Assembly: GCF_009914755.1 (NCBI RefSeq)
Contig: NC_060935.1
DNA: 64,000 nucleotides
Direction: 5' to 3' (one strand)
Origin: the human T2T-CHM13v2.0 reference genome, Homo sapiens
Shown piece after piece: positions 20,624 through 64,000 of the stretch. Both the position numbers and the translations under genes were made by a program. Position 1 is the stretch's first letter; each line of letters opens with the position of its first letter. Under the pieces are notes generated by a model. That model did not search any database. It saw only the letters and a program-made list of their open reading frames with translations, and was not told where the DNA came from.

Positions 20624-21108
20624 TGTGCCAGTCTGTTTTCTGTTGCTTATAACAAAATATCTGAAACTGAGTAATTTCTAAAGAAAAGGAATTTATTTTT
20701 TACAGTTATAGAGGCTGGAAAGTCCAAGGTTGAGAGGTCACATATGATGAGAATCTTCTTGCCAGTGGGAACTTTCTGAAGAGTCCCAAGGTGGTGTAAG
20801 GACCCAGAAATTTCTGATCTTCTTCTACATCTAATTGCCCTGGGTCGAGGCAGGGTATCACAGGGCAAGGGGGCTGAGCATGCTAATGTGTTAGCTCAGG
20901 CCTCTCTTCTTCTTATAAAGCAATCACTTCCCCTCCCATGATAACCTATTAATCCATTAGCCCATTAATCCATAAATAACAAATTCATTCATGAAGACAG
21001 AGCCCATATCATCCAATCACCTCTTTTAAAGGCCCCCACCTCTCAATACTACCAGATTGGTGATTAAGTTTCAACATGAGTTTTGGAGGAGACATTCAAA
21101 CCATAGCA
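20624..21108 (-). mobile_element. MST (MSTB/C-like) MaLR solo LTR carrying a 49-bp foreign insert
   Basis: 'ttacagttatagaggctggaaagtccaagg...ccaatcacctc...aagtttcaacatgagttttggagg...cattcaaaccatagca'. Confidence 0.88.
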
Positions 21109-22408: not shown

Positions 22409-22764
22409 TCAAAGATAAGATTATTTGCTGTGAGGAAAGCTACCCAGTTAGAGAAACAGAGAAAGTCTTTAGTTGTTTCATAAGCAGGTTCATTTTTTAT
22501 ATATGATTGTGACCCAGAAATTTCTGATCTTCCTCTACATCTAATTGCCCTGGGTCAAGCCCAACCCAAATGCCATCTGGTGACAGCCACTTATGCTGCA
22601 AAAGCAGAGCTGATGAGGCAAATCTTTTGAGTAGTAAAATGGGATTTTGCATCAGGTAAAGACCTTAGGTGAAGAGCAATGAGGCATACTGAAAGAAACT
22701 TAGTTCTACACAATTCCTTGAGAAACTCAGTCTCCATGCTGCCTGGATTGGGGGCAGGGATGTA

Positions 22765-36659: not shown

Positions 36660-38438
36660 TGTCTAAGTCTATTTGGGCTACTATAACAGAATGCCATGGA
36701 CTAGATGGCTTATAAACAGTAGAAAATTATTTCTCACAGTTCTGGAGACTGGAAAATTCAAAACCAAGGCACCAGCATATTTTCTGTGTCCTCATATGGT
36801 GGAAGGAGCGAGGGAACTCTCTTAAGTCTCTTTTATAAGGATGCTTATCCCATTCATGAGGGCTTCACCTTCATTACTTAATCATCTCCCAAAGGCTCCA
36901 CCTCCTAATACCATTATATTGGATGTTGGGATCTCAACATATGAATTTGGGGGGGACACAAGCATTAAATCTATATCATTCCACTGCTAGCCACCCAAAA
37001 TCTATGTCCTTCTTAACTGCAAACTACATTCATTACATCCCTAAAGCCCCAAAAGTTTTACCTCATTCCAGCATTAACTCTAAAGTCTAAAATCCAGTCT
37101 CATCTAAATATTATCTAAATTAAATATGGATGAGACTTAAAATATGATTTATCCTGAGGCAAATTGCTCTTCCAGCTGTGAACCTGTGAAACCAAACAAG
37201 TTATGTGCTTCCAAATACAATGGTGAAAAGGCATAGGATGGACATTTCCATTCCAAAATGGAGAAACAGAAAAGAAGAAAGAGGTAACAGGTCCTGGGTA
37301 AGTCCAAAGTATAAGGCAAACTCCATGAGGTCCTAAGGCTCAAAAATAATCCTCTTTGGCTTAATATTCTGCCCCCCAGGCTCACTGGGACTGAGGGCCT
37401 GCCTGGGGCTGTGGCTCTGCCCCAGCTGCTTTGCCACATGGCCCACACACCCACACATCTGGGCAGCCCTTTCCCCATGGTTCTCAGTTCAGTGGGGCCA
37501 TTTCGCCTATTGAAAGGAAGACAATTGCCATCCCTTTTGAAACCAAGGAGGCAGCCCTGATGATCTGTGAGTCTTCTTCAGGATTCTTGATAAATAGTGA
37601 ATGTTCTCAGCTGAATAGCATTGTGGTCCCATCCTGTAAAATCCAAATCTGACAGCCTTCCTTCGTTCCTTCTCTTTTCCTTCCCCTTTGGTTCAAATTG
37701 GCAGTTTCTCTGCTGGGGTGGATGATTAAGTTTGTGGTTCATACCTATACTAATCTCTTAAATAGTCAGTTGGCCACACTGTTAGTGTTCTCTTCCAAAC
37801 GTGGGTTCTCATTTTTTGCAATGTGGATAGACTGAGAATTTTCTAAATCTACAAGTTCTCATTCTGTTTTGCTTAACAATTCTTTCTTTAAGTCATTCTG
37901 TCTTTCATTTTACTATAAGCAGCTAGGAGGAGCCAAGCTGCACCTTCAAAACTTTGGTTAGAAATAGCTTCAGCTAAATATCCCGTTTCATTGCTCCCAA
38001 CTAAATATCCTGTTTCATTGCTCCCAAGTTCTACCTTACACAAAACAGTAGAACATAAACACAATTCAGCAAAGTTATTTGCCTTTTTATAACAAGGATC
38101 ACCTTTCTTCCAGTTTCTAATAATATGTTCTTCATTCCTCTCTGAGACTTTATCAGAATGGTCTTTACTGTTCATATACTACCAACATTCTGGTCATGGG
38201 CACATAAGTATTCTGCAAGAAGCTTGAGGCTTTCTCTACAGCTCTCCTCTTTTCTTTCTGAGCCTGCACCAGAATTGCTCTTAATGGTCCATTCATGGCA
38301 GTGTAAGCTTTTTCAAGCATGCACCTCAAAATTCTTCCAGTTTCTACCCATTACATAATTTCAAAACTGCTTTCATATTTTAGGTATTTATTTGTTTCAA
38401 CAGCACCCCCATTTCTTGGTATCAATTTCTGTGTCTTA
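36660..38438 (-). mobile_element. MLT1A-type MaLR: one LTR (36660-36978) plus internal region (36979-38429); second LTR essentially absent
   Basis: LTR 'ttatttctcacagttctggagactgg...ctatatca'; internal region parallels the THE1 internal ('cattccagcattaact', 'cagcacccc...ggtatcaatttc'); minus ORF 'SERNEEHIIRNWKKGDPCYK' is a MaLR ORF remnant. Confidence 0.88.
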
Positions 38439-44699: not shown

Positions 44700-45138
44700 T
44701 GTAGCAGATGCTGTCATTACCTGCCATGTCCCCTTACCACTTCATTGTGTGCCTGTTGACCTCCAGTGCAGCCTCTGCATTGATTTCAGTGTGGGATTTT
44801 CCTGGCCACTGAAGCTTACTTTGTTCATCTGGGCTGCAGGTTTCAAATGATGGGAATTTAATGCCCTTTGAGAAATGCCCTCTAATTAATAACTAAAGAG
44901 AGCTAATGTGTAATACCTTGGATCCCTTGCCACTTAGGTGGGGTATATCTGAGGTGTATTAAGCCTCCATAGCAGGTTTAACCTTTACTCCCTCACTGTA
45001 GGAACTGGCTTGATAATGTACCTTTTATTGGCTTCCTTTTCTGGATCACTTCTCCTGTGTTTCCTTCTCCTTCTAAATAATGCTTTTCCCTTTAATACTT
45101 GTTTTAGGGTATGCTACTGGGGAAACCCAAACTACAAT
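44700..45138 (+). mobile_element. LTR16-like ERVL LTR
   Basis: 'tgtagcagatgctgtc...ggaactggcttgataatg...ccttttattggcttcc...ctggggaaacccaaacta'. Confidence 0.7.
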
Positions 45139-45739
45139 ATTCTATCCTGCGTCCTGAGGACTTATCACTGAGTGGGGGTTGTTCTTGAAGCTGCAAAATT
45201 CACAGAAGATTTGAGCTTCATTTTGCTTAGAACCTTAAAAGTTAATAGGAAAAATAGAACCAAAAAAGCACTCTAGTTTCTCGTATTTTAAAAAGTTATG
45301 ACTTACACAATTCCCCAATTATATTATACAGCTCTCTGAGATGACAGAATAATTGTTAAGGACATTTGAAACTGCCCTGCTCAAAAAACATTAATGATTG
45401 GTGCTGCCTGTAGGATAGAGTCTCATTTAACTTGAAGGGCATTCTAGTCCCCATGAATATATCCATTTTCTTGCCATAGCAGGCTGTTTATTGTTTCTAA
45501 ACATGGCTTGCATGCTATGGTACCTCCTCTGTGTTTCTGCTCACTGGTCCTCTGGTTTGTGTATGAATTCTCATTGTCACCGTCCCAGAATTAAGTAACC
45601 CAGCCATGCGCCCCAGCATGGCCTTCCGCAGTCGGCTCCCAAGGGATGAGTGGATGAGAGGGTCATTCTGCCCACGCTGTGCAATGGGTGGGCTTGAGGG
45701 GAATGACCACACTGACCTTTGATCTTTGCTTCTTTGCAG

Positions 45740-46091
45740 ATATCTCAGTGAGCCTGCTGACCCTTGTGGTCACTGCCTGTGGTCTCGCTCTCTTTGGCGT
45801 GTCTCTCTTCGTATCTTGGAAACTCTGCTGGGTTCCGTGGCGAGAACGAGGCCTGCCCTCTGGTAGCAAAGACAACAACCAGGAGCCCCTTAACTACATG
45901 GACACAGAGACCAATGAGCAGGAGAACAGTGAGGACTTCCTAGACCCTCCCACGCCCTGCCCTGACTCCTCCATGAAGATCAGCCACACCTCCCCTGACA
46001 TTCCCCTCTCCACCCAGACGGGGATCCAGGAGAACTGTGCCCATGGCGTCCGCGTGCAGCGCCAAGTCACAGAGCCAACCTCGTCGGCCCG
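45740..46091 (+). CDS. SYT9: Synaptotagmin-9 coding exon 2 (352 bp): transmembrane helix and start of cytoplasmic linker
   Basis: Translation (D)ISVSLLTLVVTACGLALFGVSLFVSWKLCWVPWRERG...MKISHTSPDIP...RVQRQVTEPTSSAR matches the SYT3/6/9/10 class and is recognised as SYT9. Acceptor tttgcttctttgcag|A (AG 45738-39, phase 1); donor CG|gtcagt (GT 46092-93, phase 2). Exon number is from recalled gene structure. Confidence 0.96.
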
Positions 46092-46279
46092 GTCAGTAAT
46101 GCCTTCTCCTTTCTGAATGCAAGGAAGGACCACCCCATTCCCCTCTCTGGCAACAATAGCACTGATAGGTCAAGGAGCCTGTAACCTTTTAGATTTCTGT
46201 TCTGTATCAGAGACATGAATATGGGAAAACTCCATGCTTCCTACGCCCTCCTTGGTCTCTACTTAGTTCATAAAAATAA

Positions 46280-46960
46280 TAGTTAACATCATTAAGACAG
46301 CATGTGTGAAGTACTCTATAAGAACTTTATATTCATATTTTATTATAGCTCACAACTTAGCATGAAATGTATACTATTATCATTCTTATTTTACAGCAGA
46401 AGAAACTTAAGTCAAGGCGATTAAATTTTTTAAAAAGCTGTATATGTAAATACCCAGGTCAGGATTTGAACCCTGGTTCAACCAACACAAGAATCTGAGC
46501 TCTTAACCACCCTTCCCTGCTGCCCTCCTACTGCTTTAGAATTTATTCCCTGTGCATCTGACCTATCCTAACAGTCACACACAGGCTCTCTTCAGACTCC
46601 GCCGTGTGGCTGGAGGTCTTTGTCCGTCTCCAGCCTTTGGAAGGCTTACAGAGTACCGATACCTAGGTCACTCTCTTTTCATTGTCTGGATGCTTTATGC
46701 TCTTCAGCAGTAGAGAAATAATATAATGCAGTGAAAAAAGATGCGGTCTCTCAAGTCAAATGAATTGGCTTTACTTACATGTGTGACATTGAACAAATTA
46801 CTTAAACTCCGTATCTGTCCATTTCCTCTTCTTCAAAAGAGGAGTAGATAGTACTGATTTGTAGGTGGTTTTAAGAATGAAATGATGACATGTGCTTGCA
46901 CAGGTCTGGCACCTGGTAAATGTTCCAAAATGTGAGCTGCCATTTTGCTGTTAGTATTGC
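46280..46960. mobile_element. Two MIR SINEs (~46280-46510 minus, ~46720-46960 plus)
   Basis: 'ttattttacagcagaagaaactt...ggatttgaaccc'; 'gtgtgacattgaacaaattacttaaactc'. Confidence 0.7.
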
Positions 46961-49049
46961 TATTATGGCCTCTCCCAAGGCTCAGATGTTGCACAAAAGT
47001 GTGTTTGAGGCTAAGCAGCCAGTTCTAAATCACTGGATATAAAAACTCATTTTTGATAAGATATTTCAGGAAAAGAGACTCAGGAAGCAGCTTTCTTTAG
47101 AATGAAAATATTGGCCTGAGTGATGGCCAGAGAAATAGCATGTGCTGTTATTTGGAAGGTATAAACACAATTTGGAGGTATTTTTTAAAAATATTTGCTG
47201 TTTGTTCTCCAGAAACAGAAATAAGACTTTACCCTTTTTATGTTAATCGAGTTTATCCTAGAGGCTCCACTCATTCTCATTAAGTGGGATGGAATATGCC
47301 AGTTTCTAATTTGATTGTTTCAGAAACTTATTTTAGCATCATTTTCAATTCTGAATCAAAGAGCCAAATCTAAAATATGCCTCTGTGAGGAGATGGGTAG
47401 TTGTCTGCCGTTTGATTTAGAAGAAATCCTCAGATTTTATCACTAGGATTTATCTTCAGATTTAAAACTTAAATATAACTAGAGCTCTATTTGATGCTGT
47501 CATAGAGTTCATGCAATGTGCAGACTTATAATAAAATCCTTTCAGTATTTCAATAGCTAAAGCCTTTTAGATAGAGTCTCCATTGAAATTTCCATTGAAA
47601 TTGCCCCCTATTTGGTTCTACTCTGCATGTAACTTTTCTGGTCTGAGTTCCTCCAATATATGGTGGTAGTACTGTGATCTTGCTAGATTTGATCTGGGGA
47701 CTCTGCCATAATTCTAACAAACTGATAGCAATGATGCCACTATAATTATCACAATATTTATACTGGGAAAGTATATAAATATACTGCATAGCAATAAGGA
47801 TTTGCTTAAAAAATAACTGTTATCACTACTGATTTGTAGAAATTGGGTAGAAGGAAAAAAATTAAAAGGGAGAGTGAAGGAATTATCCCTGTAAAATGCA
47901 CTTTGTGTTCAGATTTATTTTAGTTTTGAAGGCATGCAATTACATTATCTTTTCTGATGGCAAAAATCAAGTTTAGCAATATCTGAACTACTATAAGAAA
48001 ACTACTCTTTTCTAGCTGCATTTGACCTAATACTGACAATTTGCATTTTTATGCATTTAAAACATTCATACCTAAGTTACTACTGACCTAGTTTTATGGG
48101 GTCTGTCTGGAAATATATATCCTTGTCTCAGGATCTCACCACAATAAGAGCAGTACATGGTCTTCTAATTCTTTGAGGATTGTGTTGCATCATGAGAAAA
48201 TGCACACACACATACACACTTTTTGCTAACAAAAAGGAAAAAGAGAATGAAATTTCCTTTATGCCTCAAAGCATTTTTAACATTCTTCTTTAACATTTTC
48301 GATACCCATATTTGGGGAGGGGAAAGGTAAGCTTTGCTGAGAAAGCTCTAAACAGTCTGCTTTTCCAGTTACTGTTTCTTCTCTTTTCTTTCTCATTATG
48401 TTCTTTACTTTCTCCCTGCCGACACCGTCTTACTGCTTCCATCCTGCAGCCATTATCACCGTCTCAGGACAGCCATGATCACAGTCTCAGGGTTCCCAGT
48501 GCACGAAAGACACAGCCTCCATATAAAGGTGTCTTCAGGATCCTTGTGATTGGCACAGTTTCTGTCACACCATTGACATCAAAAATCTCAACCTCACCTG
48601 GCCTCTTCGGCTTGGATGTGTTCTTGGATATGTTTGGCTGACACAGTGCCTTTTTGAAATGTCCTAAAGATGGGCTTTGTTTTATCTTCTAAGAATGTTT
48701 CTGGTCAGAATGACTTTCTGTTGTTCTTTCAAGATCAAGCATGTTCGGTGTCTAGTTTCTTCAGTGACTATTAGTACCATCCAAAATTCCTGTCAATTCT
48801 TTTTGATTTGAATGAAGTCCCTTTTGTACAGTGACTCAATATGCTGGAAATGTGGATGTTTCAATTTTCTCAGAATTTTTTAATTCCAGAGCTTTATAAA
48901 GTTCTCTACTCCAAATGTATGAAAATCCCTGGATCCCCAAAATAGAAGGAACCTTGAAAGGCCATCTAATCCATTTCCTGATTCATGTCCTAAGATGAAA
49001 GTTCATCCTATTTTTCTCAAGCCTTCTCAAATGTCTTATGTAACACTTC

Positions 49050-49655
49050 AGTTTTTCAAAAATTTCAATTACCACACCACAAACCCCTTATCAGGTCTAT
49101 TAAGGCCCTGCATTTTAATACTGCCACAGTCTGCTTCCAACAGCCTCACCTTATGGCCAAGGCCACCATGTTGCAGAACCCTAGGGGACTATTTTAACAT
49201 GAACTCAATAGGAGACTGCCTGGAAGAAGCTTGTTGTACTGCAGCTGCACTAGCCTCTCTCTTAGTTCCTTCAGCATCCCAAGCCCCTTCCTGCCTTGAG
49301 GTCTTCACACGTTGTTCCCTCAGCCAGGAATGCTTTTCCTTTTTTTGTCCTTCTTGGGACCTTTACTTCCCTTACACCCTAGCTGAAACATCACCTTCTC
49401 AGAAAGTTCTCCCCGGCCACTCCATCTGAAGTCTGTGTTCTGTCCCCCACTCCTTCCCACTTTAATTCTCCCTCGCATTGCCTTGTTTTCATGCCTTCAC
49501 AGGATTAAATTATTTTAAGTGATTCTTTATTGCTTGTACTCCCCTCTAGACTGAGTTCTGTGAGCTCAGAGACCACATCTGTTTTGTTTCTTCCTGTCTA
49601 TCCAGCCCCTAGCACCACCTGGCACATGGAGGACTTTTTTCCATGAATGACTGAC
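49050..49655 (+). mobile_element. L2 3' region
   Basis: 'ctagactgagttctgtgagctcagagaccacatctgttttg...tatccagcccctagcac...cctggcacat'. Confidence 0.75.
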
Positions 49656-52600
49656 AGAATACATTGGTCAATATCAGGCCACTTTTCTCATGCTCTTCTG
49701 ACAAGAATGACAAAGGGCCAGAAGTATAAACTGAGCAGAGCCTGTAATAATGGTGTGAGGCTGGCGGAAGGCCATTTGTCCCAGGTCTCACATTCATTAA
49801 GAGCCCCACATTAGGTTTTTGACCTTACCTCTGAATTAAGCAATCCGTAGAGTTACAGAAATATGCTGACAGAATTGAAAGAGGAAGATAACCATCACAC
49901 TCTAAATTTAGGTCCCATGACTGGCCACAACTCAAGTAAATAGTACACAAAAATTGAATGTAATTATACTATGAGTAGCACATTTCTATTAAGTTATATT
50001 TTTGTGTGGTGAGAACATTGGTTCAATGTAAACATCTAAAACATAATTTTTGAATTATAGTTATTTCTTCAGATTTAAATTAACTGCTTCAAAAGTGGAA
50101 GTTGCCTAGACCTATCTCAACTTCCACGAGACCCCGAAATGATATGTAAATGAGTGTTTTCTCTAGTGGGATTAAATTATCAGAAACTATTATATCCATA
50201 GCATTTCTATATTTACTCTAGACACAGATATCAAGCATTTGCTATGGCAAAATTCAATATTAGGTGGTGGCAATAAAGAGAGAAAAAATATATAACCATG
50301 CCCACAAAAGACCCACAGCAAGAGCACCAATTATACACACTGAAGTGCTCAATTTGTTCTTTAGAAGATTAATCTGGAAAGAATGCATAAGATGCATGGG
50401 ACAGTGGTGAAGATTGGATGTATACAGGGGCCTGTCTGAGGGCCTGAACTCAGCTAGGATCAATGGGAATGAAAAGAGACATAAGACGTGAGCTACTGTA
50501 GAGAAAGTTTTGGTGAACAAAGGCTCATCTTAGTTATGGAGGATAAAGTATTCAAGGTTTCAAATCCGTTTAACTTTGGAGGGAGTGGGAGGAAGCAGGT
50601 CTTGCCTCAGTGTATCCACCTACCCTTGACAACACACCTCCACTGGCCCCAAGGCCTGATGCCTGTCTCGTCATTATCTCACTTATGCTGGAAACCCTTG
50701 AATCTTCAGCCCAAGAAAGCCTCAGATTTTCACTTCCTCCTGCCCTTGTAGTCTACTAACTGTGTCTGTCCCTATCCAGGATTTCCCCTTCTTCTGTGTC
50801 TGCCTGTGGTTCAGGAAAACCTAACTCTCTCTTCTTCATCACCAGGGGAGTTTTGAAGAAAAACATCCTGTCTCCACCATTTCCATAATTCCCTGCCTTG
50901 ACTTGAACATAGGAAAGAAACCAGTAACATTTCTGAAACCACAATTTGCTTCTCTCTTTTTTCTCCTTGGATCCTGAAGCCTTGTAGACACTGGTGCCCG
51001 AGAACCAGGGAAAGGACAGGTCAGGTTTCACCTCTGAGGTGGGCCACTGCAGTGAAGGAACATATATTAGGGTGCACTTGTTCATGGCTTCACATGAAAG
51101 CCCGCGATGGAAGGGGTGTTGGGGATATGAGTGCTGGCTTGTACAGAGCCTGGACTCAGAGATGCAGTGGGTGTATGTGAGGGACTCTAGAAAAAGCTGC
51201 TGGGGCAGAAGAGCTGAAAGTCCCATTCTGCTAGAGAGGTAGGACCAAGATGCAAATGGATTTAATGTCCTTATTGACGTCTACAGCATCCGCTTGAGGT
51301 GGCTCAGAATGAGGCCAAGTTAAGTAGGCAAGCCCAGCTCAAGTATCATCTCCTTCATAAAAGTTTCCTCAGCCAGAGGCCTTTCTCCCTCTCATCTTCT
51401 GGTGGGGGAACCATCTCATCACCCGCCTGGACAGCCATTTTCTTCAAGATGGTGACTACATTTTGCCTCTCTGCACCTTCCACCCCATTTGACACTGCTT
51501 TGCAAATTCGAATTTGTTGAATTGCCATTACGTCCTGTCTCTTAAGATCTGATCGACATAGTTGGCTTTTCGGGTGATAGTTTAGGGACTAACCTAGAGC
51601 TGGGACTAGTTAATTCACATCTGAGGAAAGGAAAGGAGGAGAAAACCTTGTACCTCTGGGATTCTGGCCTTTCCTGAACTATGGCTGCAACTCAGCACAA
51701 GACTCAGGTTTCTCCAGGCGTGAAAGTATGTTTTTGAGTTTGTTTTGGGAAATCTACTTTGCACATTTTGTTAATTATCTTTGAACTCAAGCTTTCCACA
51801 GGTTCAACTGCTATTCTTCCCACTTAGGTCTGGGGTAGCCAAGTCTAATCTTTATTTTCTCTTTGTTGTTTCTTCCATGAGAGGAAAACAGCTTTTGCCC
51901 ACCCAGAGAGAGAATGGGAGGTGGATGAAGCTGAGAGTTCCAACCCCAGCAGCCAGCTTCTCTACGACAGCATTAGGGTGTGGCTTATTAGTAGAGGAGA
52001 TCATCTCTCAACTTTCCTTCTGACCCACTGTCGTTGGGGTCCACTTTTTTTCATTCACTGTGCACATTAAGTCCTGAGAACACCAAAATACGGGACTCCC
52101 CAGACCTACTCAGAGGACTGTCTGCTTCAGTCACAGATCTCTCTTTGCCAAATTCCTACACTCCCTCAATGTCATTGTCCTTGTCAGTCAGTGGCTTTGA
52201 AATTCTAGACCCTTGCCCTGGGAGCCTCGCATTTACTGCACTCAAAACCACCTCCATTAACCATTTAGAGCCACCTCACCTGGGGTGGGGGAGGCTCAGG
52301 TAATGGCTCTATATTCCGTATCTTTCCTACCTCTTGCTTTGGGCTTGCGTTTTCTTCCCACCTCTGTTTGAGTAGCCTATGAGAACTATAGAATATTGAT
52401 TTTCCATTTCCTCCACCCCCTCTTCTCCTTTACGCCCCTGGGGCAGTCTCCCTGCTCCACTTCCTTATTTTCAGCCCCCAGACCTCCAGAGGTTATACAG
52501 GGAGGTTATGAGTTACCCTGGTTCTCTGGCTCTTCTAAGCTTCTCTCTTCTTCCGTGCCTCTCCCCGAACTCCAGTAAACTCTAACTCTCTTCTGAATGG

Positions 52601-52810
52601 AAATTGAAAGAGATTGAAAGGGAGCCCCAGGAGTGAGAACCTGTCATGCCCAGTTACAGTCTTCGCTATCTGCTTTAAGCCACTACCTTACAGTTAGATT
52701 CAACTGATTTCCCAAGAGTAAGTGTGATTCTGAATGGAGGGGAAAGTGTTGGGAATGAAATTATCATGTAAAATGTTTCAGTAGATAATAGTATTCATAT
52801 CTGTGACTGG

Positions 52811-53134
<324 letters not shown>

Positions 53135-53145
53135 CATAACTGTGA

Positions 53146-53446
<301 letters not shown>

Positions 53447-53717
53447 TGTGATTGGTTTTTAAGAGGTCAGCTGTATTGGGAATTTTTGGAGGGATTCCTG
53501 TGCAATTGGGTTCTCAGGGAATGGGATCTTTCTTCAGTCTTTGAACTACATCAACAACCCCCGCCTCCCTGCTGGCAATCCACTTTGGTTAGGAAGAGCT
53601 GAGCATGTGGGACAATTTATCTTCAGATTTCATGTCTAAGAAAATGTACATGTAGAACAGAATATGTCACACTACTAAGTAGCCAAATCCATGTATTTTA
53701 AATTAAAATTAAAACTA

Positions 53718-54119
<402 letters not shown>

Positions 54120-56095
54120 TCAAAGGGAAATTGTAATGCACAGTCTGCCCAGCAACCATCTGCGGAGCAGCAGAGTGACAGGGCCTAGGGCTGACATGAG
54201 ATTATTGTCTGGGACTGGATTGTGTAGACACAGAATTGTTGGTCCACCACAGACTCATCTGGAGGAGGAGCATCCAGTGGATATTGAGGATGCACTTTTA
54301 TCATGTAAACAGCACCACTTACTAGACAGTACCCAGAAGGGTGGGAACTGATGCAGGACCCAATTATGGACATTTTTTGAAGAAAAAATGTTTCTTTTGT
54401 AAAGAAAACTCAATAGCAGAGGGAAATAGGGCTGGCACCAGCCTATTCTGACCTCTGCATATGGCAGGTTACTTTCTGCTGCCTCCCAGTCCTTTCTGCC
54501 CACAGAGTCCAGTAAAGTGAGACTCAAGCTCTATTCTAGCACTACATTGGTTCCACTTCTGGACAAGGGAGTGATCTGGCTGCACTAGCTCAGAAAGCCA
54601 GTTTTAGATGCTTAACAGCAACTCCTGCCTTCCCTCCCCCGCCCACCCACATCATAAAATACAGAGAAACCTTAAGAGTGTGGATTTCTCTAAAAGAGAT
54701 TAAAATCTCCCTTCAGCAACTCTCAGATCACAAAGTTTTTGTGCATGTGGGAATGTATGTGACTGGGCTATGTCTGCTTGCTATGGACTGTGTTAGATGT
54801 GACAGGTACCAGTGACAGCTCTGTGACGGTACTCTTGTCATACCAGGTGGGTGATTAGTGATTAGGAGGCTATTTTAGGATAAAGAGGAATGCTCAGCAT
54901 AACAATATCTGTGGTGACAAGGGAGAATACTTTCAAACGTGTCTGGGGGTCCCTTAATTCCATTTTTACGTCTTTATTTCATTGTCTGAAGAAAGGAAGA
55001 GAAGGGCAAATTCAAATGTTTACTCTGCCTCTCCAACTGTTTACCAATCCCTAAGAGACATCCCAGCTGTTCTCTTTCACCTTCTAGTAAAGAGGCTATT
55101 TTAATTAAGGTTGTTGAGCGAATGCATACAATACAATATAATGACTCTAAACTCTGAGCTAAAAACAACAAAAGTAACCTTAAAAACAACCTTGTATGTG
55201 ATAACTACTTCTCTCAACTTGGGAAGACACACACAGATCAGACAGGCTTTAAAGAGAATTTTAGGGAAACTTCTAACCCAAACCAATACACTTACAGGGT
55301 GAAGAAGACTATACTACAGTTGCAAATATTTAGTTTGGAGTATCAGTATCCAGCCATCTCCAGTTGAATCCCTACATGCATTTATAGTAGCTCATCTTTA
55401 ATTTTTGAGCCATTAGTGTTTATTTCAGAAATAAAACCTGTCCTCTTGATCACTAATCACCCATGTGTACAGCAAAAGCACAATCCCAATTATGTCACTT
55501 CTACCTGTCAGAGCCACCACAATCCACTGCATGCAGACACATCCCAGTCATATACATTTTTGCATGAGCAAAAGCTGTGTTCTTGTGATGAAATGATTTG
55601 ATTTGAACCAGTAAGAATTTATATCCTTATAAAGCTATAAGCCAGTGGCAAGAAATTCTGTGTAATTTAGAGAAAGATTCATTCTTCTTAAGGCAACACT
55701 TGGCTATTTCAATTTCAGAATTATATTATATATAAAGTTGAATAATTTTATTTTTAAAGCAGTTTGTACAAATCTTTACATTCCACCAGAGGAATAAGCT
55801 TCTTTAATGGCATATTAGACAGTTTAGGAACTATATTAAACCTTTAAAGCTCTGAGGTCACATGTTACTAGGTTCATTTCCTGATACCAAGCCTCAGTTG
55901 TGAGCTTCAAGCCTTACGGAGCAGCTTACTCACACTGATGAGCATTTTGAATTTAGGCCACACACACACAAAAAAGGCCCACAGATCTAAGCTCCTGACA
56001 AAATATAACAGTCTACCTACATCCCAGGCAAAAGTTTCTGAGAGACCCATAGCTAATAAGGTTATAACTTTGTTCTGTGTTGCTCTTCATTCAAG

Positions 56096-56642
56096 GCATA
56101 ATTCAATCCGAAGACAACTCAACTTGTCAAACCCGGACTTCAATATCCAGCAGCTTCAAAAACAGGAACAGTTGACTGGAATTGGTAGAATTAAACCAGA
56201 GTTATATAAGCAGAGGTCATTGGATAATGATGACGGGAGACGGAGTAACAGCAAGGCTTGTGGGAAACTGAACTTCATTTTAAAATATGACTGTGACTTA
56301 GAGCAGCTCATAGTGAAGATTCACAAAGCTGTCAATTTGCCCGCCAAGGACTTTTCTGGGACTTCAGATCCTTATGTCAAGATCTATTTGCTTCCTGATC
56401 GGAAAACAAAACACCAGACTAAAGTTCACAGAAAGACCCTGAACCCTGTGTTTGATGAAGTGTTTTTATTTCCGGTTCCCTACAATGACCTTGAAGCACG
56501 GAAGCTTCACTTCTCTGTGTACGACTTTGACAGGTTCTCTCGTCATGACTTAATCGGCCAAGTGGTGGTGGATCACTTCCTAGACTTGGCTGATTTCCCC
56601 AGGGAGTGCATCCTTTGGAAGGATATCGAATATGTCACCAAT
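56096..56642 (+). CDS. SYT9: Synaptotagmin-9 coding exon 3 (547 bp): linker and C2A Ca2+/phospholipid-binding domain
   Basis: (R)HNSIRRQLNLSNPDF...CGKLNFILKYD...KAVNLPAKDFSGTSDPYVKIYLLPDRKTKHQTKVHRKTLNPVFDE...YDFDRFSRHDLIGQ...WKDIEYVTN; all five C2A aspartate ligands present. Acceptor ctcttcattcaag|G; donor AAT|gtgagt (56643). CG (exon 2) + G gives an in-frame Arg codon. Confidence 0.97.
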
Positions 56643-59600
56643 GTGAGTCCAGCATTTCTTCATTTTTGTGGTGGGGGGCATCTTGGTTAGCAAGGAAACA
56701 GATTACTTACACATTATCTTGAGGACAAAGTGTAAAATTCCTGTCAATGTACATGTAGCAGTTATTTCAGAACCTCCTTGTACCTTTTCAGAAACAGGGT
56801 TTTAACAATATTGATTTTGAAGTTTCCAAGCATTATTCCATGAAAACAATATTAAAGAATAACATTCTCTCTTTTCTACTTTCAGATTCTTAGGTAGCCC
56901 CTAAGAGACAGCAGGTGTTATCTGTCCTCCGTACCACATTTTCTTTAGAGCTTTTTCAGGTTGTTTGTGCTGAATGGAACCTGGCATTCTATTAACTGTA
57001 GTCTGCAGCTAAGAGACCATTACCTGACTCTGACAGCAGTAGGTACTTACCTGTCTTCTGAGGTTGGCTCAAGAGCATTTCCCATGATTGGATCCTCAGC
57101 TTCAACCCTACCAGTGGGAGTGGTTGAGAAGAGTTGGCAACACATTTTTAAATGTAAAACTCACAAAATCCAAGTTACAAGGAGGGAAGTCTGAAAAGAA
57201 ACTATAGATAATGGCAAAACTAATCTATCGACAGTCACATCCAATTTAGGGCTCAGGAGAGAAGTCAAAGGTGCTATGTAGTGGTACCATACATCTATGT
57301 CTACATTTTAAACACAAGATTTCAGAGGTGATATTTCTACTCCATTTATATCCTTTTCATTATCCTGCAGAGGTGTGTTGGCATTCCAGAAATAGAAAGG
57401 AAAATTGAACATTCTTAGGTAACTCTGATATTTTAAAGCCACTTGTTTCTTTCACCTGTCCAAATTCCCTGAGATAACTTTGTTAGCTCCTCTTCCTGGA
57501 TATGAGCTATTCTGAGGCCAGCGTAGCTCTCTTTCTCTGCCATGGCATCCAAATGGACCAAGCACCACCGTCTTTATTCAGCTCAGACACTGATTCAGCT
57601 TGAGTCTGGAGCCTATTTAGTGAAAGACTAATCTCTGCCTAATGACCAAATACCTGCACCAGTACCCTCTTATCCTCAGCCACTTTTATGAACTAGGGAC
57701 TCACCCATGCTCTGATTGCCCTGTGGGACACCTTCTCTCCACATGCCACAGGGTTCCAGTGCCAACTTTGTGCTGCTATCCAAATAAACAAAATGTAGCA
57801 TGGGAGTCTGCTGGCCTTTATCATAATCATGAGGAAAGAAAGAAAGGAGTTGGAGCTGGATAAGGTGCAGAGAATAGCAGTTGATGAAACCAAGGTGATT
57901 TGGGATACTGGGGAAGGAATAGGTCTCTTTATCTTAAAAGATAATAATACACATAAACCCAACAATGGATGCTGGGGAAAGCAAGGCTTGTCTCCCAAAT
58001 CCCAACTGACAAAATCAGGAAGCAACATGAGAAGGTTTAAAGAAACAAAATGGGAAGGCTGCTTATACAAAGATACGAATGGCTCAGGCATCACCCCCCA
58101 CTGGGGTATTTACTAAGTCTCCCTGGTTATGGGAGCTGAGACACTGCCAGCTGCAGTGAGGTGCCTTGAACTTAAGTCTCATCTCAGGTATGGTAGGGAG
58201 GTGTTGGTCACACCATCTAATGAGACATCAATTTATACTTTTTGACAAATGGATTCCATAAAATAGCTGGAGAGGTTATTAGAAAGTTCAACGAGGATCT
58301 TGCTGAGAGTTGCCTTTAGAGACTTTGTGGTGAGAGCAACGTTGACTGTGCAGTGGCTGATACAAATCTGGATAAGGCTGATGATCCCTGGTGGGAACGA
58401 CTCCTAGGACAGGTTCCTGTGGAACAAGAATATGGAGTGGCAGGTGATGGAGACCTTCTGGCCCTGAGATCACTGCCATTTCAGCATTCTCTTGGGAGTA
58501 AGAGTTTCTTTTCCATTGTTGGAAAATCCTGGATTTCCATAGGGTTAAGGAGAATGTGAAATTATTTATCAGGGAGGAAAACCAATAAAGCTACAGGCTT
58601 CAGATTTCTCAGTTGTTTCCTCAGGCAAACAATAAATCTTCTGAGCATTGATCTAAGCCTTTGGATGGCCACGGGAGAGGGTAGGTCCTGTCAATGGAAT
58701 TACAGGCTATTTCATAGTCTGCCATATTATTACATTCCATTTTAAAAAATGTTATTTGGGGTTGTGGGTTTTTTTTTTGTATAGAGACTGAACATAAAGA
58801 GCTGAGATTTGCCATGATTCTCTTTTTATAATATAGAATGTATATAATATAGTAAATATAATAAATGGATTAATGAAGGAAAAATTAAATGAACAGGCCT
58901 GAACCCACCATTTAGTTGAAGAATAGAACATTACTTCTATTGACCCTTGAATTGTCCTCTATTGCATTCCCTCTCAGTCCAGCCCTGCCAAGAGAAAACC
59001 ACTATCTTTAATTTTACTTATATCATCATATAAAAAATATATATGCATATACATATGACAATATGGGTTTGGGTTTTGTCTATTTTGGCATTTTATTGCT
59101 CTTCTTTGACTAGCTTTTTTTCTTTGGTCAACATTGATTATGGCATTTAGTAATAGAAATAAGCAGAGCAGCTGTGGCTTATGTATCTTCATTGCTATAT
59201 AATATTCCATTGTATTAATATTAATATATGACAAATTTGCATTCTTGTACTGATGACATTCAGGATGTTAGTTTTTCTGTGATTCTGAATAATATCGCAG
59301 AGATTTTGTACACATCTTTTGGTTCACATATGCAATCATTTCTCTAGAGTTTATCCCTGATAGAGGTAAGGTATACATGTGTTCAGCTTTTCTAGATAAT
59401 GACAGTCTTTTTCAGTCATTTGCACGTATCACAAATTGATCCTTCCACTGTTGAAATGTGATGATCCCTAGTGTTCCACTTTCTCTCCAACTCTTGCAGT
59501 TGCCACACTGATCAATGTATGTGTGTGCATGTATGCAAAATGATATATTATTGGCATTTCTTCAGTTGTCCGGTTTGACCATCTCTTGATATGTTTATTG

Positions 59601-59999
59601 GTCATTCATGTTTTCTTTCTTGTGAAAATTCTTGTTCAGCACTTATTCTTTTGTTTTCCTTTCCTTGTTGATTCACATAGGCTTTTTAAGCAGTTGGGAT
59701 GCAAATCCCTTGTTGGTTATGTGTTTTACAAACATCATCTCTCAGTTTATGGCTGTCTTTGTATTCACTTTATGGTGTCTTTGATAAATAGAGGTTATGT
59801 TTGGTGCAATAAAATGTATCAGGATTTTCTGTTGTAAATTAGCGCATTTGTGTCCTACTTAAGAAGTACTTCCTTACCCTATGTCAGGAAAGATATTTCT
59901 CCTATGCTTTCTATTAGAAGTGTTAAGGTTTTGTCTTCCTCAATTATGATTTTAATCCATCTAGAATGGAAATGTTTACATAGTGTTATATAGGCATCA

Positions 60000-60378
60000 T
60001 ATATCAGTCAACTTGGGCTGCCATAACAAAATACCATAAACTGGGCAACTTAAACAATAGATATTTATTTCTTAGAGTTCTGGAGCCTGGGATATCCAAG
60101 ACCAAGTTTCAGCAGACTCCATTCCTGGTGAGGCTCTCTTCCTGGCTCACCTTCTCACTGTGCCCTCATGTGACAGAGAGAGGGAGAGAGCTCTGGTTCT
60201 AGTCTCTCTTCCTCTTCTTATAAGGATACTAATCCTACAATGGGGGCCCCACCCTCATGACCTCATGTAAACCTGATTACCTCCCAAAAGCTTCATTTCC
60301 AAATACTGTCACAATCACACTGGGGATTAGGGTTTCAATATATAAATTGGGAGGGACAAAAACATTCAGTCCATAACA
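60000..60378 (-). mobile_element. MLT1A0/B-like solo LTR
   Basis: 'gggctgccataacaaaataccataaactgg...aacattcagtccataaca'. Confidence 0.88.
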
Positions 60379-60963
60379 TATCCATATTTATTTTTCTATA
60401 TGGGCAAAAAATTTTCTGGCATATTTTCCCAATAATATGCACTGTATGCTCTGTCCTATGTAGATTTCTGTATATGCACAACCTGTTTCTGGATTCTCTT
60501 TTCTATCCACTGGGATGTTTAACTATCTCTATGAATAGCACAATTTGCAAATTACTATTGTTCTATGATAAGCCTTAACATCTGGAAGGGCAAATCATCC
60601 AGCCTACCTCTATCTTAGTTCAACCTTGGCTGGTACTTGACTTTTCTCACACATTTTAGAATCACATTGCCAAGTTAAACACCCTCTCTGGTATTTGGAT
60701 TTGTATGAAGTCTATTGATTAATTCATGAAAATTTTATATCTTTTGTGATATTGAGTCTTTCTACACGTGACCATAGTATATCTCTCCATTTACTTATTC
60801 TTTTACTTATTTCTTCTTTAAAGTTTTTTATTCAAAGCCTATAATTTTCTACGTTAAGATCTTGCATGTCTCTTGTTAGATTTATTGCTAGGTACATTAC
60901 TTTTTGTTCTTTTAAATGTTATCTTCTCTAAAATTTCATTTTCTAACTATTGCTAGTGTATAG

Positions 60964-61314
<351 letters not shown>

Positions 61315-61865
61315 TAGCTATGTATATTTTGTGGATATATTCATATTAAGAATGTTTTACTCTATTCAGAGTTGAGTAAGCCTTTTTATCACACGTAATT
61401 GTTTTATCGTATGCTATAATCCAGTGAGGTTTTTTTTACTCCTTTAATCTGCTATTTTGGTCAATTACATTGATTGATTTTCTAATTTTGAGCCAATCTT
61501 ATATTCCTAGAATGATCCACACTGATCTTGATATAGTACATTTTCTTTACACTGCTGAGTTCAGTTTGATAATATTTCATTTAGCATTTTATTTCTTCTG
61601 TGCTCATGAGTGATGCATGTAATATGCTGTCTTGTACTGTCCTTGTCTGGCTTGGAATCGAGGTAATTCTTGCTTTATAAAGTTAGTTTGGGGCATTATT
61701 TTGGATGCCTGCTATTTGTTCCTGCTCAGTGTCCCTGAAGGCTTTGGGGTTTTTGTGTATCTTTCTTCAAACTGGAAGAATGCCCCTAGTTTCTGACTTC
61801 TCCTTAGGTTGAGACAATGAGAAAGGGAGGAGAGTGGGGTCAGGATATTCATTCCCCTATTTCTT

Positions 61866-61941
61866 CTTTTTTTTTTTTTCTTTTCTTCTTTTTCTTTTTT
61901 TTTTTTTTTTTTGAGACTGAGTCTTGCTTTGTCGCCCAGGG
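61866..61941 (-). mobile_element. Extremely 5'-truncated Alu (28-bp body plus ~47-bp tail) inside an LTR33-like fragment
   Basis: 'gagactgagtcttgctttgtcgcccagg' at 61913-61940; TSD ctatttctt at 61857-65 and 61942-50. Confidence 0.88.
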
Positions 61942-62969
61942 CTATTTCTTGAGGTATCTGTAGGCTGGCAATAACTTTCAACTGAAAGCCACAGCTCTGG
62001 AATATGCCTTTATTTTGCTTTTATTCTTAAAAGATTGTCTGGGAATAACAATTTGGGAGCACAAAACTGAGTTACTTTGATTTTGCCATTATAAAACTAT
62101 CATTTCATTGTCTTCTGACCTCCAATTGTTTTTGAGAAGTTGACATTTGGTCTAATATATATTCCTTTGTATAGGAATAAAACCGTAATTACCACAGACC
62201 CCATAACACTAGCTCAGTGGTAATTTGGGTATGAATGTTTTAAATGCATAACAATGCGAATTGTCAGTATTAAGTCAAATGCAGCTAGAAACAGTAGTTT
62301 TCTTATGGTAGTGCAAGTTTGTATTAATGGTTAGAAACTGGCTGAGGGGACTTTTGTTTCTTTTTTACACAAAGCAAGTCTAAGACAGGCATGATGTTGG
62401 GGATAATATCTGTTTAATAAGCAGGGGAGAAGTTCTGTGTTGTTTATCCTTTAACGATGTGACTCTCAGGCTCTGCAGTCCTCTGAATGCCAGAAGCTAA
62501 GCCACCAGAGACTCACATTTACCTCCATTCAAGCTCCAGCTGCAGAGTTTACTTACCTCTGTGGATTAATGCTTTCTTGTTGTTTCTGTCCACTGAAAAA
62601 TTCTCTTTCTGGTCCGTCAGCTCTGCTACACATTAAGAAGAATTTTTTAATCTAGTATTTTTACCTGAAGGAGTTTCTGTGAGTATTCAAACCTATTGCA
62701 AGAAACACTGCTATATGGCTCAAAGCTTATTTTTAAAAAGCCATTTTGCTTATACTAACTGAGTAGTAATCTGTGTATTATATATTTGTCTTTCAATTGA
62801 GTAGAACTTTAGAGGTCCTTCAATCTAGCAGATAAAGCTGAGATGAATGGCCATTAGGACATTCAGCTGAGGTTACATAGCTGAATAATAGCCAAATCAA
62901 AATTAAGACCAAGTTTTTTAAATAACCATTTCAGTCTGTGCAGGAAAAGGTGGCTCAAAATGATCATAT

Positions 62970-63270
62970 ACACTGGTTTACTTCTCCTTGCCCTCTTTAC
63001 CTGGCTAACTCCCACTAAGCTCTTAAATCCCAGCTTATGTGCCATTTCCTCAGAGAACTCTTTTTCTGAGCCCTGGACTAGTGTAGGTTTTTCTGGCATT
63101 TGTTTCCATGACACTCTGTATTTCTATCATTACTCATGCTTCTTTTGTGTATTTGTTCAATTTTCTTTCTATAAGTGCAAAACCCACATTTGGTTTGCTT
63201 CCTGCTGGGTGCTCAACCTCTAGAATGGTGTCTGAAAGTTAGATATTTAATAAGCACTTGCTGCATAAAG
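62970..63270 (+). mobile_element. L2 3' fragment
   Basis: 'cctggctaactcccactaagctcttaaatcccagctt...ctagaatggtgtctg...taataagcacttgctg'. Confidence 0.65.
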
Positions 63271-64000
63271 TGAAACTCCTTATGAGGGACTAATTTGTTG
63301 AGTCTCTAGGGACTGCTTGAGTTGGAGGCTGTTATGCAGAACTGAACTCATAAACTAATCTTTTTAAAAAAATTCTTTGTTTCTCCAAGGAGAGTGTGAG
63401 TTTTATAAATGTTGGCACTCAAATAAAAATTAATCCTCATGCTTTCCTATGAAAGAACAAAACGGCAATTATTGAGTGTAAAAATGATGGTGTAATTAAA
63501 CCTCTCAACTACTGAAGCCAGATCAATAATAGTACAATACATCTTTGTGAGGATTTTATCAGTCAGCAAGAGAGAAGACAGCATCAAGGGGGAAGGTCAA
63601 AATTTCGGAGACTATGAGTCCAGTGTTCTGGGTTAATGTTGTCTGTCAGGACGATCCTCTTGGCATTTTTAGTATACCCCACTTACTAGTGGCTTTCTGA
63701 AAAAGTAGGCATTAAGCACTTCAGGAATCTCTTTCTTGGTGGTTGGCTTAGAAACTGGTTCGGAGACTGTCTCTGGGAGCTATGATCACCTCAGTTAGAC
63801 TCTGATTTGGAGAAGATGCCACAGTTCTCATGTAATGACAGTAGAAGTAATGAATTTCCCTCTATGCCAATACAGATTCCAGTTCAGAAGAGGCAAGGAC
63901 ACAGTTTACAACAGCATAGACTTTCTTTTAATGTTAAGAACTTAAAACTCTTATTTCAGCAAGGTTTGTTATTTTGTAGTGACTGATTTGGAGACTTTCC

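What the first reader, a model, noticed from the sequence alone, without database searches (positions are those of the whole stretch)
47984..62315. ~122-bp inverted duplication of apparently non-repeat sequence bracketing SYT9 exon 3 (47984-48106 vs 62194-62315)
Seen: the reverse complement of 62194-62315 aligns by hand to 47984-48106 at ~111/123, with 11 substitutions and 1 gap (e.g. 'ctagctgcatttgac.taatactgacaatt.gcatt.ttatgcatttaaaacattcatacc'). One copy is in intron 2 and the other in intron 3, 14 kb apart. About 5 of the differences would still pair as G-U in the sense transcript. I do not recognise the sequence as a TE. The downstream copy sits right after a decayed L1M-like stretch, suggesting it is the inserted, templated copy. 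Inference: in pre-mRNA the arms could form a ~120-bp duplex enclosing the C2A exon, promoting back-splicing, frame-shifting exon-3 skipping (547 nt is not a multiple of 3) or ADAR editing. That would be an Alu-independent, locus-private RNA structure switch.
Basis: partly seen in the sequence, partly recalled or inferred. Interest (0 to 1): 0.8.

Follow-up and report, generated by a model that had tools for sequence, protein, structure and literature searches.

The report
Private inverted 123-bp duplication in SYT9
Two inverted copies of one 123-base stretch, found nowhere else in the genome, lie in the introns on either side of SYT9 exon 3; they look like an old copy-and-paste repair scar, and nothing yet shows that they affect splicing.

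Summary
Window 47984-48106 (+) and 62194-62315 (-) match at 111 of 123 columns (11 substitutions, 1 gap; 5 differences are G·U in the sense RNA). Homology stops sharply at both ends. These are the only two copies found in the whole assembly, and both sit in single-copy sequence. They are therefore not two insertions of a repeat family but one local inverted duplication, roughly 20-90 Myr old. Neither arm has a poly(A) tail or a convincing target-site duplication, and neither matches an Rfam family or folds on its own. The best fit is a templated insertion or template switch during DNA repair or replication. Which copy is the daughter cannot be told. The arms could form a duplex of about -173 kcal/mol around the C2-domain exon 3. 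However, a stronger and nearer inverted Alu pair also brackets that exon. A second private inverted pair (207 bp, 90%) lies elsewhere in SYT9. No paper found reports a SYT9 circRNA or RNA editing. Verdict: real, mildly unusual, probably neutral; the proposed function is untested.

The parts
47984..48106 (+). Upstream arm of the private inverted duplication. It lies in SYT9 intron 2, 1,892 nt after exon 2.
   Evidence: It is single-copy apart from its partner. No Rfam match. No fold of its own: z -0.35 sense, -0.45 antisense.
62194..62315 (-). Downstream arm, the reverse complement of the upstream arm, in SYT9 intron 3.
   Evidence: Both flanks (61944-62193 and 62316-63300) are single-copy. No Rfam match. 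z 1.14 and 0.78.
56096..56642 (+). SYT9 exon 3, 547 nt, enclosed by the arms. It encodes a C2 domain.
   Evidence: Coordinates come from the hub's annotation. AG at 56094-95 and GTGAGT from 56643. Open frame. PF00168 C2, E 1.5e-30.
53688..53978 (+). Alu in intron 2. It can pair across exon 3 with the Alu at 61014-61318, or within intron 2 with the Alus at 52881-53437.
   Evidence: the repeat finder pairs I1-I5 and I7-I9. Energies. Orientation census.
61014..61318 (-). Alu in intron 3, the cross-exon partner of the Alu at 53688-53978. It competes with the private arms for bracketing exon 3.
   Evidence: Rfam SRP/Alu-type partial matches at L002 341-619.
52881..53437 (-). Two Alus in intron 2, inverted relative to the Alu at 53688-53978. 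They are within-intron competitors of the cross-exon Alu pairing.
61868..61943 (-). Heavily 5'-truncated Alu (about 31 nt plus a poly(T) run on the + strand) with its own target-site duplication CTATTTCTT (61857-61865 and 61942-61950 as reported). It is independent of the arm.
   Evidence: Sequence. Many 88-98% matches to query positions 541-624.
62166..62324 (.). 7-nt direct word TTTGTAT at 62166-62172 and 62318-62324. It brackets the downstream arm plus 21 nt of extra sequence on one side and 2 nt on the other. It may be a weak target-site duplication or may be chance.
   Evidence: There is no poly(A). My estimate is that a shared 7-mer between two 36-nt AT-rich flanks is not improbable by chance, so this is not counted as evidence.

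Best explanation
The two arms are a single, fixed, locus-private inverted micro-duplication. About 123 bp of unique SYT9 intronic sequence was copied once and pasted in reverse orientation 14 kb away in the neighbouring intron. This happened some tens of millions of years ago. The likely route is a templated insertion at a DNA break or a replication template switch, meaning a 'class 2'-like patch without retrotransposon hallmarks. Which arm is the parent is unknown. The pair is most likely a neutral scar. In the pre-mRNA it could in principle form a duplex of about 120 bp that loops out exon 3. That effect is inferred only, and it would have to compete with Alu pairings and with ordinary co-transcriptional splicing.
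For: Shown:
- Identity is 111 of 123 with sharp ends.
- The 3.1-Gb assembly holds only two copies (2 candidates, 2 scored; two searches found the partner and nothing else over the arm).
- The core pattern gave 2 exact hits plus 7 hits at 3 mismatches, against 3 for the reversed control.
- The same tool found 68-72% identical copies of an old repeat at 61430-61692 (474 candidates, 40 scored), so it can see old families of about 260 bp.
- Both arms sit in single-copy DNA.
- There is no poly(A), and no flank repeat of 9 nt or more of the kind the neighbouring truncated Alu shows.
- There is no Rfam family and no self-structure.
- The size lies within the 73-414 bp reported for experimental templated sequence insertions, and the absence of a target-site duplication and poly(A) matches 'class 2' (PMC5110952, parts 1-2 read).
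- A second private inverted pair with sharp ends (207 bp, 90%, 1,063 bp apart, only 2 copies genome-wide) lies elsewhere in SYT9. This points to a recurrent mutational process rather than something special to exon 3.

Inferred:
- Age: JC distance 0.096 (95% range 0.047-0.174). With recalled primate rates of 1.0-1.2e-9 per site per year, this gives about 40-48 Myr (range about 20-87 Myr).
- Neutrality: 5 of 6 transitions being G·U in the sense strand has a one-sided p of 0.11. It can also be explained by strand-biased mutation.
Against: - No outgroup genome could be consulted, so an empty site, the polarity and the junction structure of the event were not seen.
- Reported templated insertions mostly come from distant loci. 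Here the donor and acceptor are 14 kb apart in cis, which fits a local template switch better than the RNA-patch model, so the exact mechanism is open.
- A 123-nt query cannot detect family members diverged by more than about 25-30%, so an ancient repeat origin of the parental sequence is not excluded. The 90% identity of the two arms still needs a recent shared ancestor.
- Neutrality is not shown. The arms have no competing partner anywhere in the genome. The only inverted Alu that could pair across exon 3 within 10 kb also has closer partners within its own intron, so the private pair could matter more than its modest energy suggests.
Confidence: 0.7

Rival explanations
1. One reading: the arms act as a functional reverse-complementary match. 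In SYT9 pre-mRNA they pair over about 120 bp, bring the exon-3 splice sites together, and measurably promote exon-3 back-splicing, frame-shifting exon-3 skipping and/or ADAR editing.
For: - Predicted duplex energy is -173 kcal/mol in the sense RNA against -160 in the antisense. The longest helix counting G·U is 38 bp (from the positions).
- Neither arm has any other partner in the genome.
- The locus is Alu-poor, with 31 Alu-like blocks in 240 kb. The one Alu able to pair across exon 3 within 10 kb has closer within-intron partners. By the published competition model that favours linear splicing for that Alu (PMC11263572, passages read).
- 5 of 6 transitions keep G·U in the sense strand.
Against: - There is no RNA evidence of any kind. 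Two circRNA searches returned 12 papers (SYT9 + circRNA) and 0 papers (circSYT9 variants); none of the 12 had both terms in its title or abstract. I read the SYT9 passages of two of them, and neither concerned a circular SYT9 RNA.
- The search SYT9 + A-to-I returned 3 papers. The SYT9 passage of the one I read concerned ac4C, not editing.
- The arms lie 8.0 and 5.6 kb from the exon, and the loop is 14 kb.
- A stronger inverted Alu pair (-409 kcal/mol) lies 2.1 and 4.4 kb from the exon.
- Transcripts that end in the alternative exon 56886-61080 (hub annotation) never contain the downstream arm.
- The G·U excess is not significant (p 0.11).
- A similar private inverted pair elsewhere in the gene argues for mutational origin without selection.
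Confidence: 0.12
2. The arms are two independent insertions of the same interspersed repeat (a transposable element or small-RNA retro-copy) that happen to be inverted.
For: Each arm has sharp ends. NCBI masking in the hub's table is incomplete, so absence of a mask says little.
Against: - At 90% mutual identity the family would be young and should have many similar copies, yet the whole assembly holds only these two.
- Both copies cover exactly the same 123-nt segment.
- There are no poly(A) tails, terminal inverted repeats or convincing target-site duplications.
- There is no Rfam family and no stable fold.
Confidence: 0.03
3. L1-mediated retro-insertion. A piece of SYT9 pre-mRNA was reverse-transcribed by the L1 machinery and inserted, either as a class 1 templated insertion or as a chimera formed by template jumping from the neighbouring truncated Alu.
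For: - Read on the minus strand, the downstream arm has the sense of the SYT9 transcript and the same orientation as the truncated Alu at 61868-61943.
- A 7-nt word, TTTGTAT, flanks the arm plus 21 nt.
- L1 ORF2 acting on non-L1 RNA is documented (PMC5110952).
Against: - There is no poly(A) at either arm.
- The truncated Alu has its own complete 9-nt target-site duplication and is separated from the arm by 250 bp of single-copy sequence, so it was a separate event.
- The 7-mer is offset from the arm ends and is within chance expectation for AT-rich flanks.
Confidence: 0.05
4. The arms are the breakpoint duplications of an old 14-kb inversion made by staggered breaks.
For: Staggered-break inversions leave inverted duplications at their two ends (recalled from the Drosophila inversion literature; no paper read here).
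Against: The enclosed segment carries exon 3 in the same orientation and reading frame as the rest of SYT9, so the segment is not inverted. An inversion followed by a re-inversion would be needed.
Confidence: 0.02

Closest known systems
Class 2 templated sequence insertions (TSI/TSIP; Onozawa & Aplan review, PMC5110952, parts 1-2 read)
   Same: A short stretch of unique, transcribed, intronic sequence is present as an extra copy while the donor stays intact. The size, 123 bp, lies within the reported 73-414 bp. There is no poly(A), no clear target-site duplication and no L1 target motif.
   Different: Reported cases are mostly templated from distant loci or other chromosomes and are thought to pass through RNA. 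Here the donor and acceptor are 14 kb apart in the same gene and inverted. The event is old and fixed, not polymorphic. Junction microhomology or filler could not be assessed without an empty site.
Replication template-switch events: short-range template switching in great apes (PMC7954356), templated inverted insertions at breaks (PMC11724301), and FoSTeS/MMBIR (recalled). For the two papers only the search listing and the start of the abstract were seen.
   Same: They produce inverted copies of nearby sequence and create new hairpin-forming potential. The cis proximity and inversion fit a switch to a template that is close in space.
   Different: Described short-range events involve tens of bases over short distances. 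This one copies 123 bp over 14 kb, and its sister pair copies 207 bp over 1 kb. The larger MMBIR events usually involve kilobases to megabases.
Inverted Alu pairs (IRAlus) and other reverse-complementary matches flanking circularised exons (PMC11263572, passages read; PMC8330042, abstract read; Zhang 2014, Liang & Wilusz 2014 and Ivanov 2015 recalled)
   Same: Complementary sequences sit in the two introns flanking one exon. The duplex is much longer than the 30-40 nt I recall as sufficient in minigenes.
   Different: The sequence is not a repeat family member, so it has exactly one possible partner. It lies much farther from the splice sites (8.0 and 5.6 kb). No circular or skipped product is documented for this exon.
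Mouse Sry flanking inverted repeats that drive circular Sry RNA (recalled; not read here)
   Same: A locus-private, non-transposon inverted duplication brackets an exon.
   Different: As I recall, the Sry arms are tens of kilobases long and nearly identical, and the circular RNA is observed. Here the arms are 123 bp at 90% identity and no product is known.

Membership tests
Interspersed repeat / transposable-element family | Many dispersed genomic copies at a divergence consistent with the copies' mutual identity | tested here: not met
   One search found 2 candidates and both were the arms. Searches found only the partner over the arm. One search gave 2 exact hits plus 7 at 3 mismatches, against 3 for the reversed control. 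Positive control: the old repeat at 61430-61692 gave 474 candidates.
Interspersed repeat / transposable-element family | Terminal hallmarks: poly(A) plus target-site duplication, terminal inverted repeats, or LTRs | tested here: not met
   One search found only 5-mers at the upstream arm and an offset 7-mer at the downstream arm, with no A-tail. The same script recovered the 9-mer target-site duplication of the control Alu.
Class 1 templated insertion (L1 ORF2-mediated) | Target-site duplication of at least 5 bp at both junctions, a poly(A) tract after a poly(A) signal, and a TTTT/A target (PMC5110952) | tested here: not met
   No poly(A) at either arm. The only flank repeat longer than 5 nt is TTTGTAT, offset 21 nt and 2 nt from the arm ends. 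About 10% sequence decay could hide a short target-site duplication but not a 10-40 nt A-tract entirely.
Class 2 templated insertion (break patch) | An extra copy with the donor intact, no target-site duplication or poly(A), and a size of tens to hundreds of bp | tested here: met
   Both copies are present. No retrotransposition hallmarks. 123 bp against the reported 73-414 bp.
Class 2 templated insertion (break patch) | End-joining signatures at the junctions: microhomology, microdeletion, non-templated bases | not testable with these tools
   This needs the empty site from an outgroup genome or a polymorphic allele, and no non-human eukaryotic genome was available. In the present-day sequence the first bases outside the arms do not match between the two copies.
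Reverse-complementary match that drives exon circularisation or skipping | Complementary sequences in the two introns flanking the exon, able to form a stable duplex | tested here: met
   The duplex is -173 kcal/mol against -16 and -20 kcal/mol for each arm alone.
Reverse-complementary match that drives exon circularisation or skipping | An observed back-spliced or skipped product that depends on the match | not testable with these tools
   No RNA data were available. The literature searches found none. Supplementary tables of circRNA atlases were not searchable.
ADAR-edited long dsRNA | Clustered A-to-I sites within the arms | not testable with these tools
   The search SYT9 + A-to-I returned 3 papers. 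The SYT9 passage of the one I read (PMC12723240) concerned ac4C, not editing. No editing database was available.
Small structured RNA gene or retro-copy (snoRNA, miRNA and similar) | A match to a curated RNA family, or a fold more stable than shuffles | tested here: not met
   Rfam at E up to 10 gave no match overlapping either arm, in 13 weak matches in all. z-scores were -0.35, 1.14, -0.45 and 0.78.

The most novel reading that the evidence does not exclude
A primate-lineage templated insertion created a one-partner, non-Alu intronic duplex around the C2A exon of a neuronal calcium sensor. Because the arms have no competitor anywhere in the transcriptome, they form reliably in SYT9 pre-mRNA. 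They then set the ratio of linear mRNA to circular or frame-shifted exon-3-skipped RNA, and they attract ADAR. This would be a lineage-specific splicing control born from a DNA repair scar. The second private inverted pair in the same gene would hint that such scars are a general, overlooked source of long-range RNA structure.
Probability: 0.07. Interest if true: 0.55.

Novelty: new member of a known kind. Interest (0 to 1): 0.25.

Why it matters
If the pair is only a scar, it is a clean, datable example of a small inverted duplication made in cis. Together with a sister pair in the same gene, it suggests that such events are fairly common and under-annotated, because repeat maskers do not flag them. 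If it does pair in RNA, it would be an unusually tractable test case for long-range intronic duplexes. It has one partner only and no Alu ambiguity, and it encloses an exon whose loss shifts the frame of a synaptotagmin. Deleting one arm would therefore give a clear answer about how far apart complementary sequences can lie and still influence back-splicing.

Tried and rejected
- **Chimeric retro-insertion with the adjacent Alu or L1.** Rejected. The truncated Alu has its own 9-nt target-site duplication, and 250 bp of single-copy DNA separates it from the arm. The old repeat ends near 61692. I recognise it as L1-like only from memory; ORF listing did not settle its family, and I did not pursue it.
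- **Longer, decayed homology beyond the arms,** including a GGAA(A)TATATAT word seen by eye on both inner flanks. Not better than shuffles.
- **Small RNA gene or retro-copy.** No Rfam hit and no fold.
- **Staggered-break inversion.** Rejected because exon 3 is collinear and in frame.
- **More sensitive genome searches with a DNA alignment or a covariance model.** Not accepted by the tool for this genome. A 24-nt pattern with 3 mismatches was used instead.
- **Literature.** Searches for SYT9 + circRNA (12 papers, none with both terms in title or abstract; SYT9 passages of 2 read, neither on a circular SYT9 RNA), circSYT9 variants (0 papers) and SYT9 + A-to-I (3 papers; SYT9 passage of 1 read, not about editing) gave nothing relevant. 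Supplementary circRNA tables were not searched.
- **Polarity of the duplication from flank features.** No decisive feature.
- **A 52-bp match of 62089-62140 to chromosome 3.** It lies beside a high-copy repeat there and is probably an old repeat fragment. It gave no evidence for a composite patch.
Full report
**Observation**

Window 47984-48106 on the + strand and the reverse complement of 62194-62315 align at 111 of 123 columns. There are 11 substitutions (6 transitions, 5 transversions) and one single-base gap. Five of the substitutions give G·U in the sense transcript, one gives C·A and five give other mismatches.

The arms are 14,087 nt apart. They enclose SYT9 exon 3 (56096-56642). Exon 3 has AG and GTGAGT splice signals, an open frame and a Pfam C2 domain at E 1.5e-30. 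The exon begins 7,989 nt after the upstream arm and ends 5,551 nt before the downstream arm.

Homology is confined to the arms. Word-7 blastn of 45000-51000 against 59000-64000 gave nothing else below E 0.03. Local alignment of the 80-nt flanks was matched or beaten by 236 of 1000 (inner) and 977 of 1000 (outer) dinucleotide shuffles. A self-comparison of the whole 64-kb window listed 35 non-self pairs. This is the only long pair outside NCBI-masked repeats; the other unmasked pairs are 62 bp at 82% and 46 bp at 98%.

**Is it a repeat family?**

No. Searching the window's own 3.1-Gb assembly with the upstream arm gave two candidates and two matches, the arm itself and its partner (E 8e-39). 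Longer queries around each arm again found only the partner over the arm:
- 46100-50000: 6 matches, four of them weak and outside the arm.
- 61320-64000: 43 matches from 474 candidates, 40 scored.

The flanks of the downstream arm are single-copy. The query 61944-62193 gave 2 matches, itself and a 52-bp hit on another chromosome. The query 62316-63300 gave 2 matches, itself and one weak hit.

The tool can see old families. In one search it returned copies of 68-72% identity for 61430-61692 and many 81-98% hits for an Alu tail at 61860-61943.

A 24-nt stretch that is identical in both arms, searched with up to 3 mismatches, gave 9 hits: the two arms exactly and seven with 3 mismatches. The reversed control pattern gave 3.

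A 123-nt query cannot detect relatives diverged by more than about a quarter. But two members of a family that old would not be 90% alike, and a family young enough to be 90% alike would have been found. So the arms share a recent private ancestor.

**What the arms are not**

- Rfam at E up to 10 gave 13 weak matches in the two 3.1-kb loci. None overlaps an arm, and the better ones are Alu-derived.
- Neither arm folds better than shuffles on either strand: z -0.35, 1.14, -0.45, 0.78.
- Neither arm has a poly(A) tract.
- The longest direct words shared by the flanks are 5-mers at the upstream arm and one 7-mer (TTTGTAT) at the downstream arm. The 7-mer is offset 21 nt from one end of the arm and 2 nt from the other. 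The same script recovered the 9-nt target-site duplication of the neighbouring truncated Alu.

It does not hold. The old multicopy repeat covers about 61430-61692; I recognise it as L1-like only from memory. Next comes a 5'-truncated Alu on the minus strand (61868-61943) with its own target-site duplication CTATTTCTT. Then come 250 bp of single-copy sequence before the arm.

I considered a chimeric retro-insertion, because the downstream arm read on the minus strand has the sense of the SYT9 transcript and the orientation of that Alu. The Alu's complete target-site duplication and the unique spacer make these separate events. Which arm is the daughter cannot be decided from this genome alone.

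**Origin and age**

The features are:
- one extra copy of unique intronic sequence;
- an intact donor;
- sharp ends;
- no retrotransposon hallmarks;
- a size of 123 bp.

These match what the templated-sequence-insertion literature calls class 2 events. Those are break patches without a target-site duplication or poly(A), and experimental inserts measure 73-414 bp (PMC5110952, parts 1 and 2 of the text read).

The difference is that those inserts usually come from distant loci and seem to pass through RNA. Here the donor and acceptor lie 14 kb apart in cis and are inverted. That points rather to a template that was close in space, either a replication or repair template switch or the locally tethered transcript. 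Papers on template switching were seen only as search listings, so the comparison rests on my own knowledge of that field.

The Jukes-Cantor distance is 0.096, with a 95% range of 0.047-0.174. With recalled primate rates of 1.0-1.2e-9 per site per year, the event is about 40-48 Myr old, with a range of roughly 20-87 Myr. This is an inference, not a measurement.

**How special is it?**

I fetched 240 kb covering the whole SYT9 gene and compared it with itself. This gave 1,335 non-self hits, and 12.6% of bases were covered three or more times. Three pairs of at least 80 bp and at least 85% identity looked private:
- this one;
- an inverted pair of 207 bp at 90%, 1,063 bp apart (L024:2422-2628 / 3691-3897);
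- a 147-bp tandem duplication at 95%.

The second inverted pair also has only two copies in the whole assembly and sharp ends. Two private inverted micro-duplications of similar divergence in one gene suggest a recurrent, ordinary mutational process. The sample is too small for a rate.

Thermodynamically, yes. The sense-strand duplex is predicted at -173 kcal/mol, against -16 and -20 kcal/mol for the arms alone. The antisense duplex is -160 kcal/mol.

The pair is not the only bracket around exon 3. The Alu at 53688-53978 (+) and the Alu at 61014-61318 (-) are complementary over about 255 nt at -409 kcal/mol, and they lie 2.1 and 4.4 kb from the exon.

That Alu also has two inverted partners 240-800 nt away in its own intron. 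Under the published competition model this favours linear splicing (PMC11263572, passages read).

The locus is Alu-poor, with 31 Alu-like blocks in 240 kb. The next downstream Alus are at about 73.4 and 74.3 kb in window coordinates. So the private arms, which have no competitor anywhere, are one of only two candidate cross-exon pairings within 10 kb.

Against a real effect:
- the distances of 8.0 and 5.6 kb and the 14-kb loop;
- the transcripts that end at 61080, before the downstream arm (hub annotation);
- the lack of any RNA evidence.

The literature gave nothing. The search SYT9 + circRNA found 12 papers, none with both terms in its title or abstract; I read the SYT9 passages of two of them, and neither concerned a circular SYT9 RNA. 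The circSYT9 variants found 0 papers. The search SYT9 + A-to-I found 3 papers, and the SYT9 passage of the one I read concerned ac4C. Supplementary circRNA tables could not be searched and might hold an exon-3 circle.

The excess of G·U-compatible transitions (5 of 6) has a one-sided p of 0.11. It could equally reflect strand-biased A-to-G mutation in a transcribed region (recalled) and one CpG decay at 48042.

**Verdict**

The feature is real and private to the locus. It is best read as a fixed templated inverted duplication, a new instance of known kinds (templated insertion or template switch; non-Alu intronic complementary match). It is most likely neutral (confidence 0.7). I give the functional reading about 0.12 for any measurable effect and about 0.07 for the full 'lineage-specific splicing switch'. 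Decisive tests are outgroup alignments for the empty site, and RNA data (back-splice and skip junctions, editing clusters, duplex capture) followed by deletion of one arm.

Noticed in passing
L024:2422-2628 and L024:3691-3897 (chr11 of the assembly, window-equivalent 176422-176628 / 177691-177897, outside the window): A second private inverted pair inside SYT9: 207 bp, 90% identity, 1,063 bp apart, with sharp ends. Only these two copies exist in the whole assembly. No exon was evident in the spacer from the ORF listing, but exon positions there were not checked.
   Followed up: partly
chr11:7505896-7506186 of the assembly (window-equivalent 189896-190186, outside the window): A tandem duplication of 147 bp at 95% identity that looks private within the 240-kb SYT9 region. 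The genome-wide copy number was not checked.
   Followed up: no
window 61868-61943: A severely 5'-truncated Alu on the minus strand (about 31 nt of the Alu 3' end plus a long interrupted poly(T) on the + strand), flanked by the 9-nt target-site duplication CTATTTCTT.
   Followed up: yes
window 61430-61692: An old interspersed repeat with hundreds of genomic relatives at about 68-72% identity (474 candidates, 40 scored). It is L1-like by my recall only. The family was not established (one search was uninformative).
   Followed up: partly
window 62089-62140: A 52-bp match at 87% (E 7e-7) to one place on another chromosome (G000:C3:183944509-183944559). There it lies directly beside a repeat with 5,090 first-look candidates. 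It is probably an old repeat fragment. The origin is unexplained.
   Followed up: partly
window 48039-48046: The upstream arm contains ATTTGCAT, the reverse of the POU/Oct octamer (motif recalled from memory). The downstream arm has a CpG variant at the same place, the difference at 48042 / 62258. This is consistent with CpG decay creating the motif in one copy. No binding evidence was sought.
   Followed up: no
window 22511-22556 vs 20801-20846, and 36708-36769 vs 5894-5955: Two further short repeat pairs outside the NCBI-masked stretches: a 46-bp direct pair at 98% and a 62-bp direct pair at 82%.
   Followed up: no
window-equivalent -26000 to 214000 (L004-L027): The SYT9 locus is Alu-poor: 31 Alu-like blocks in 240 kb, 17 minus and 14 plus. 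By my recall the genome average is roughly one per 3 kb.
   Followed up: partly
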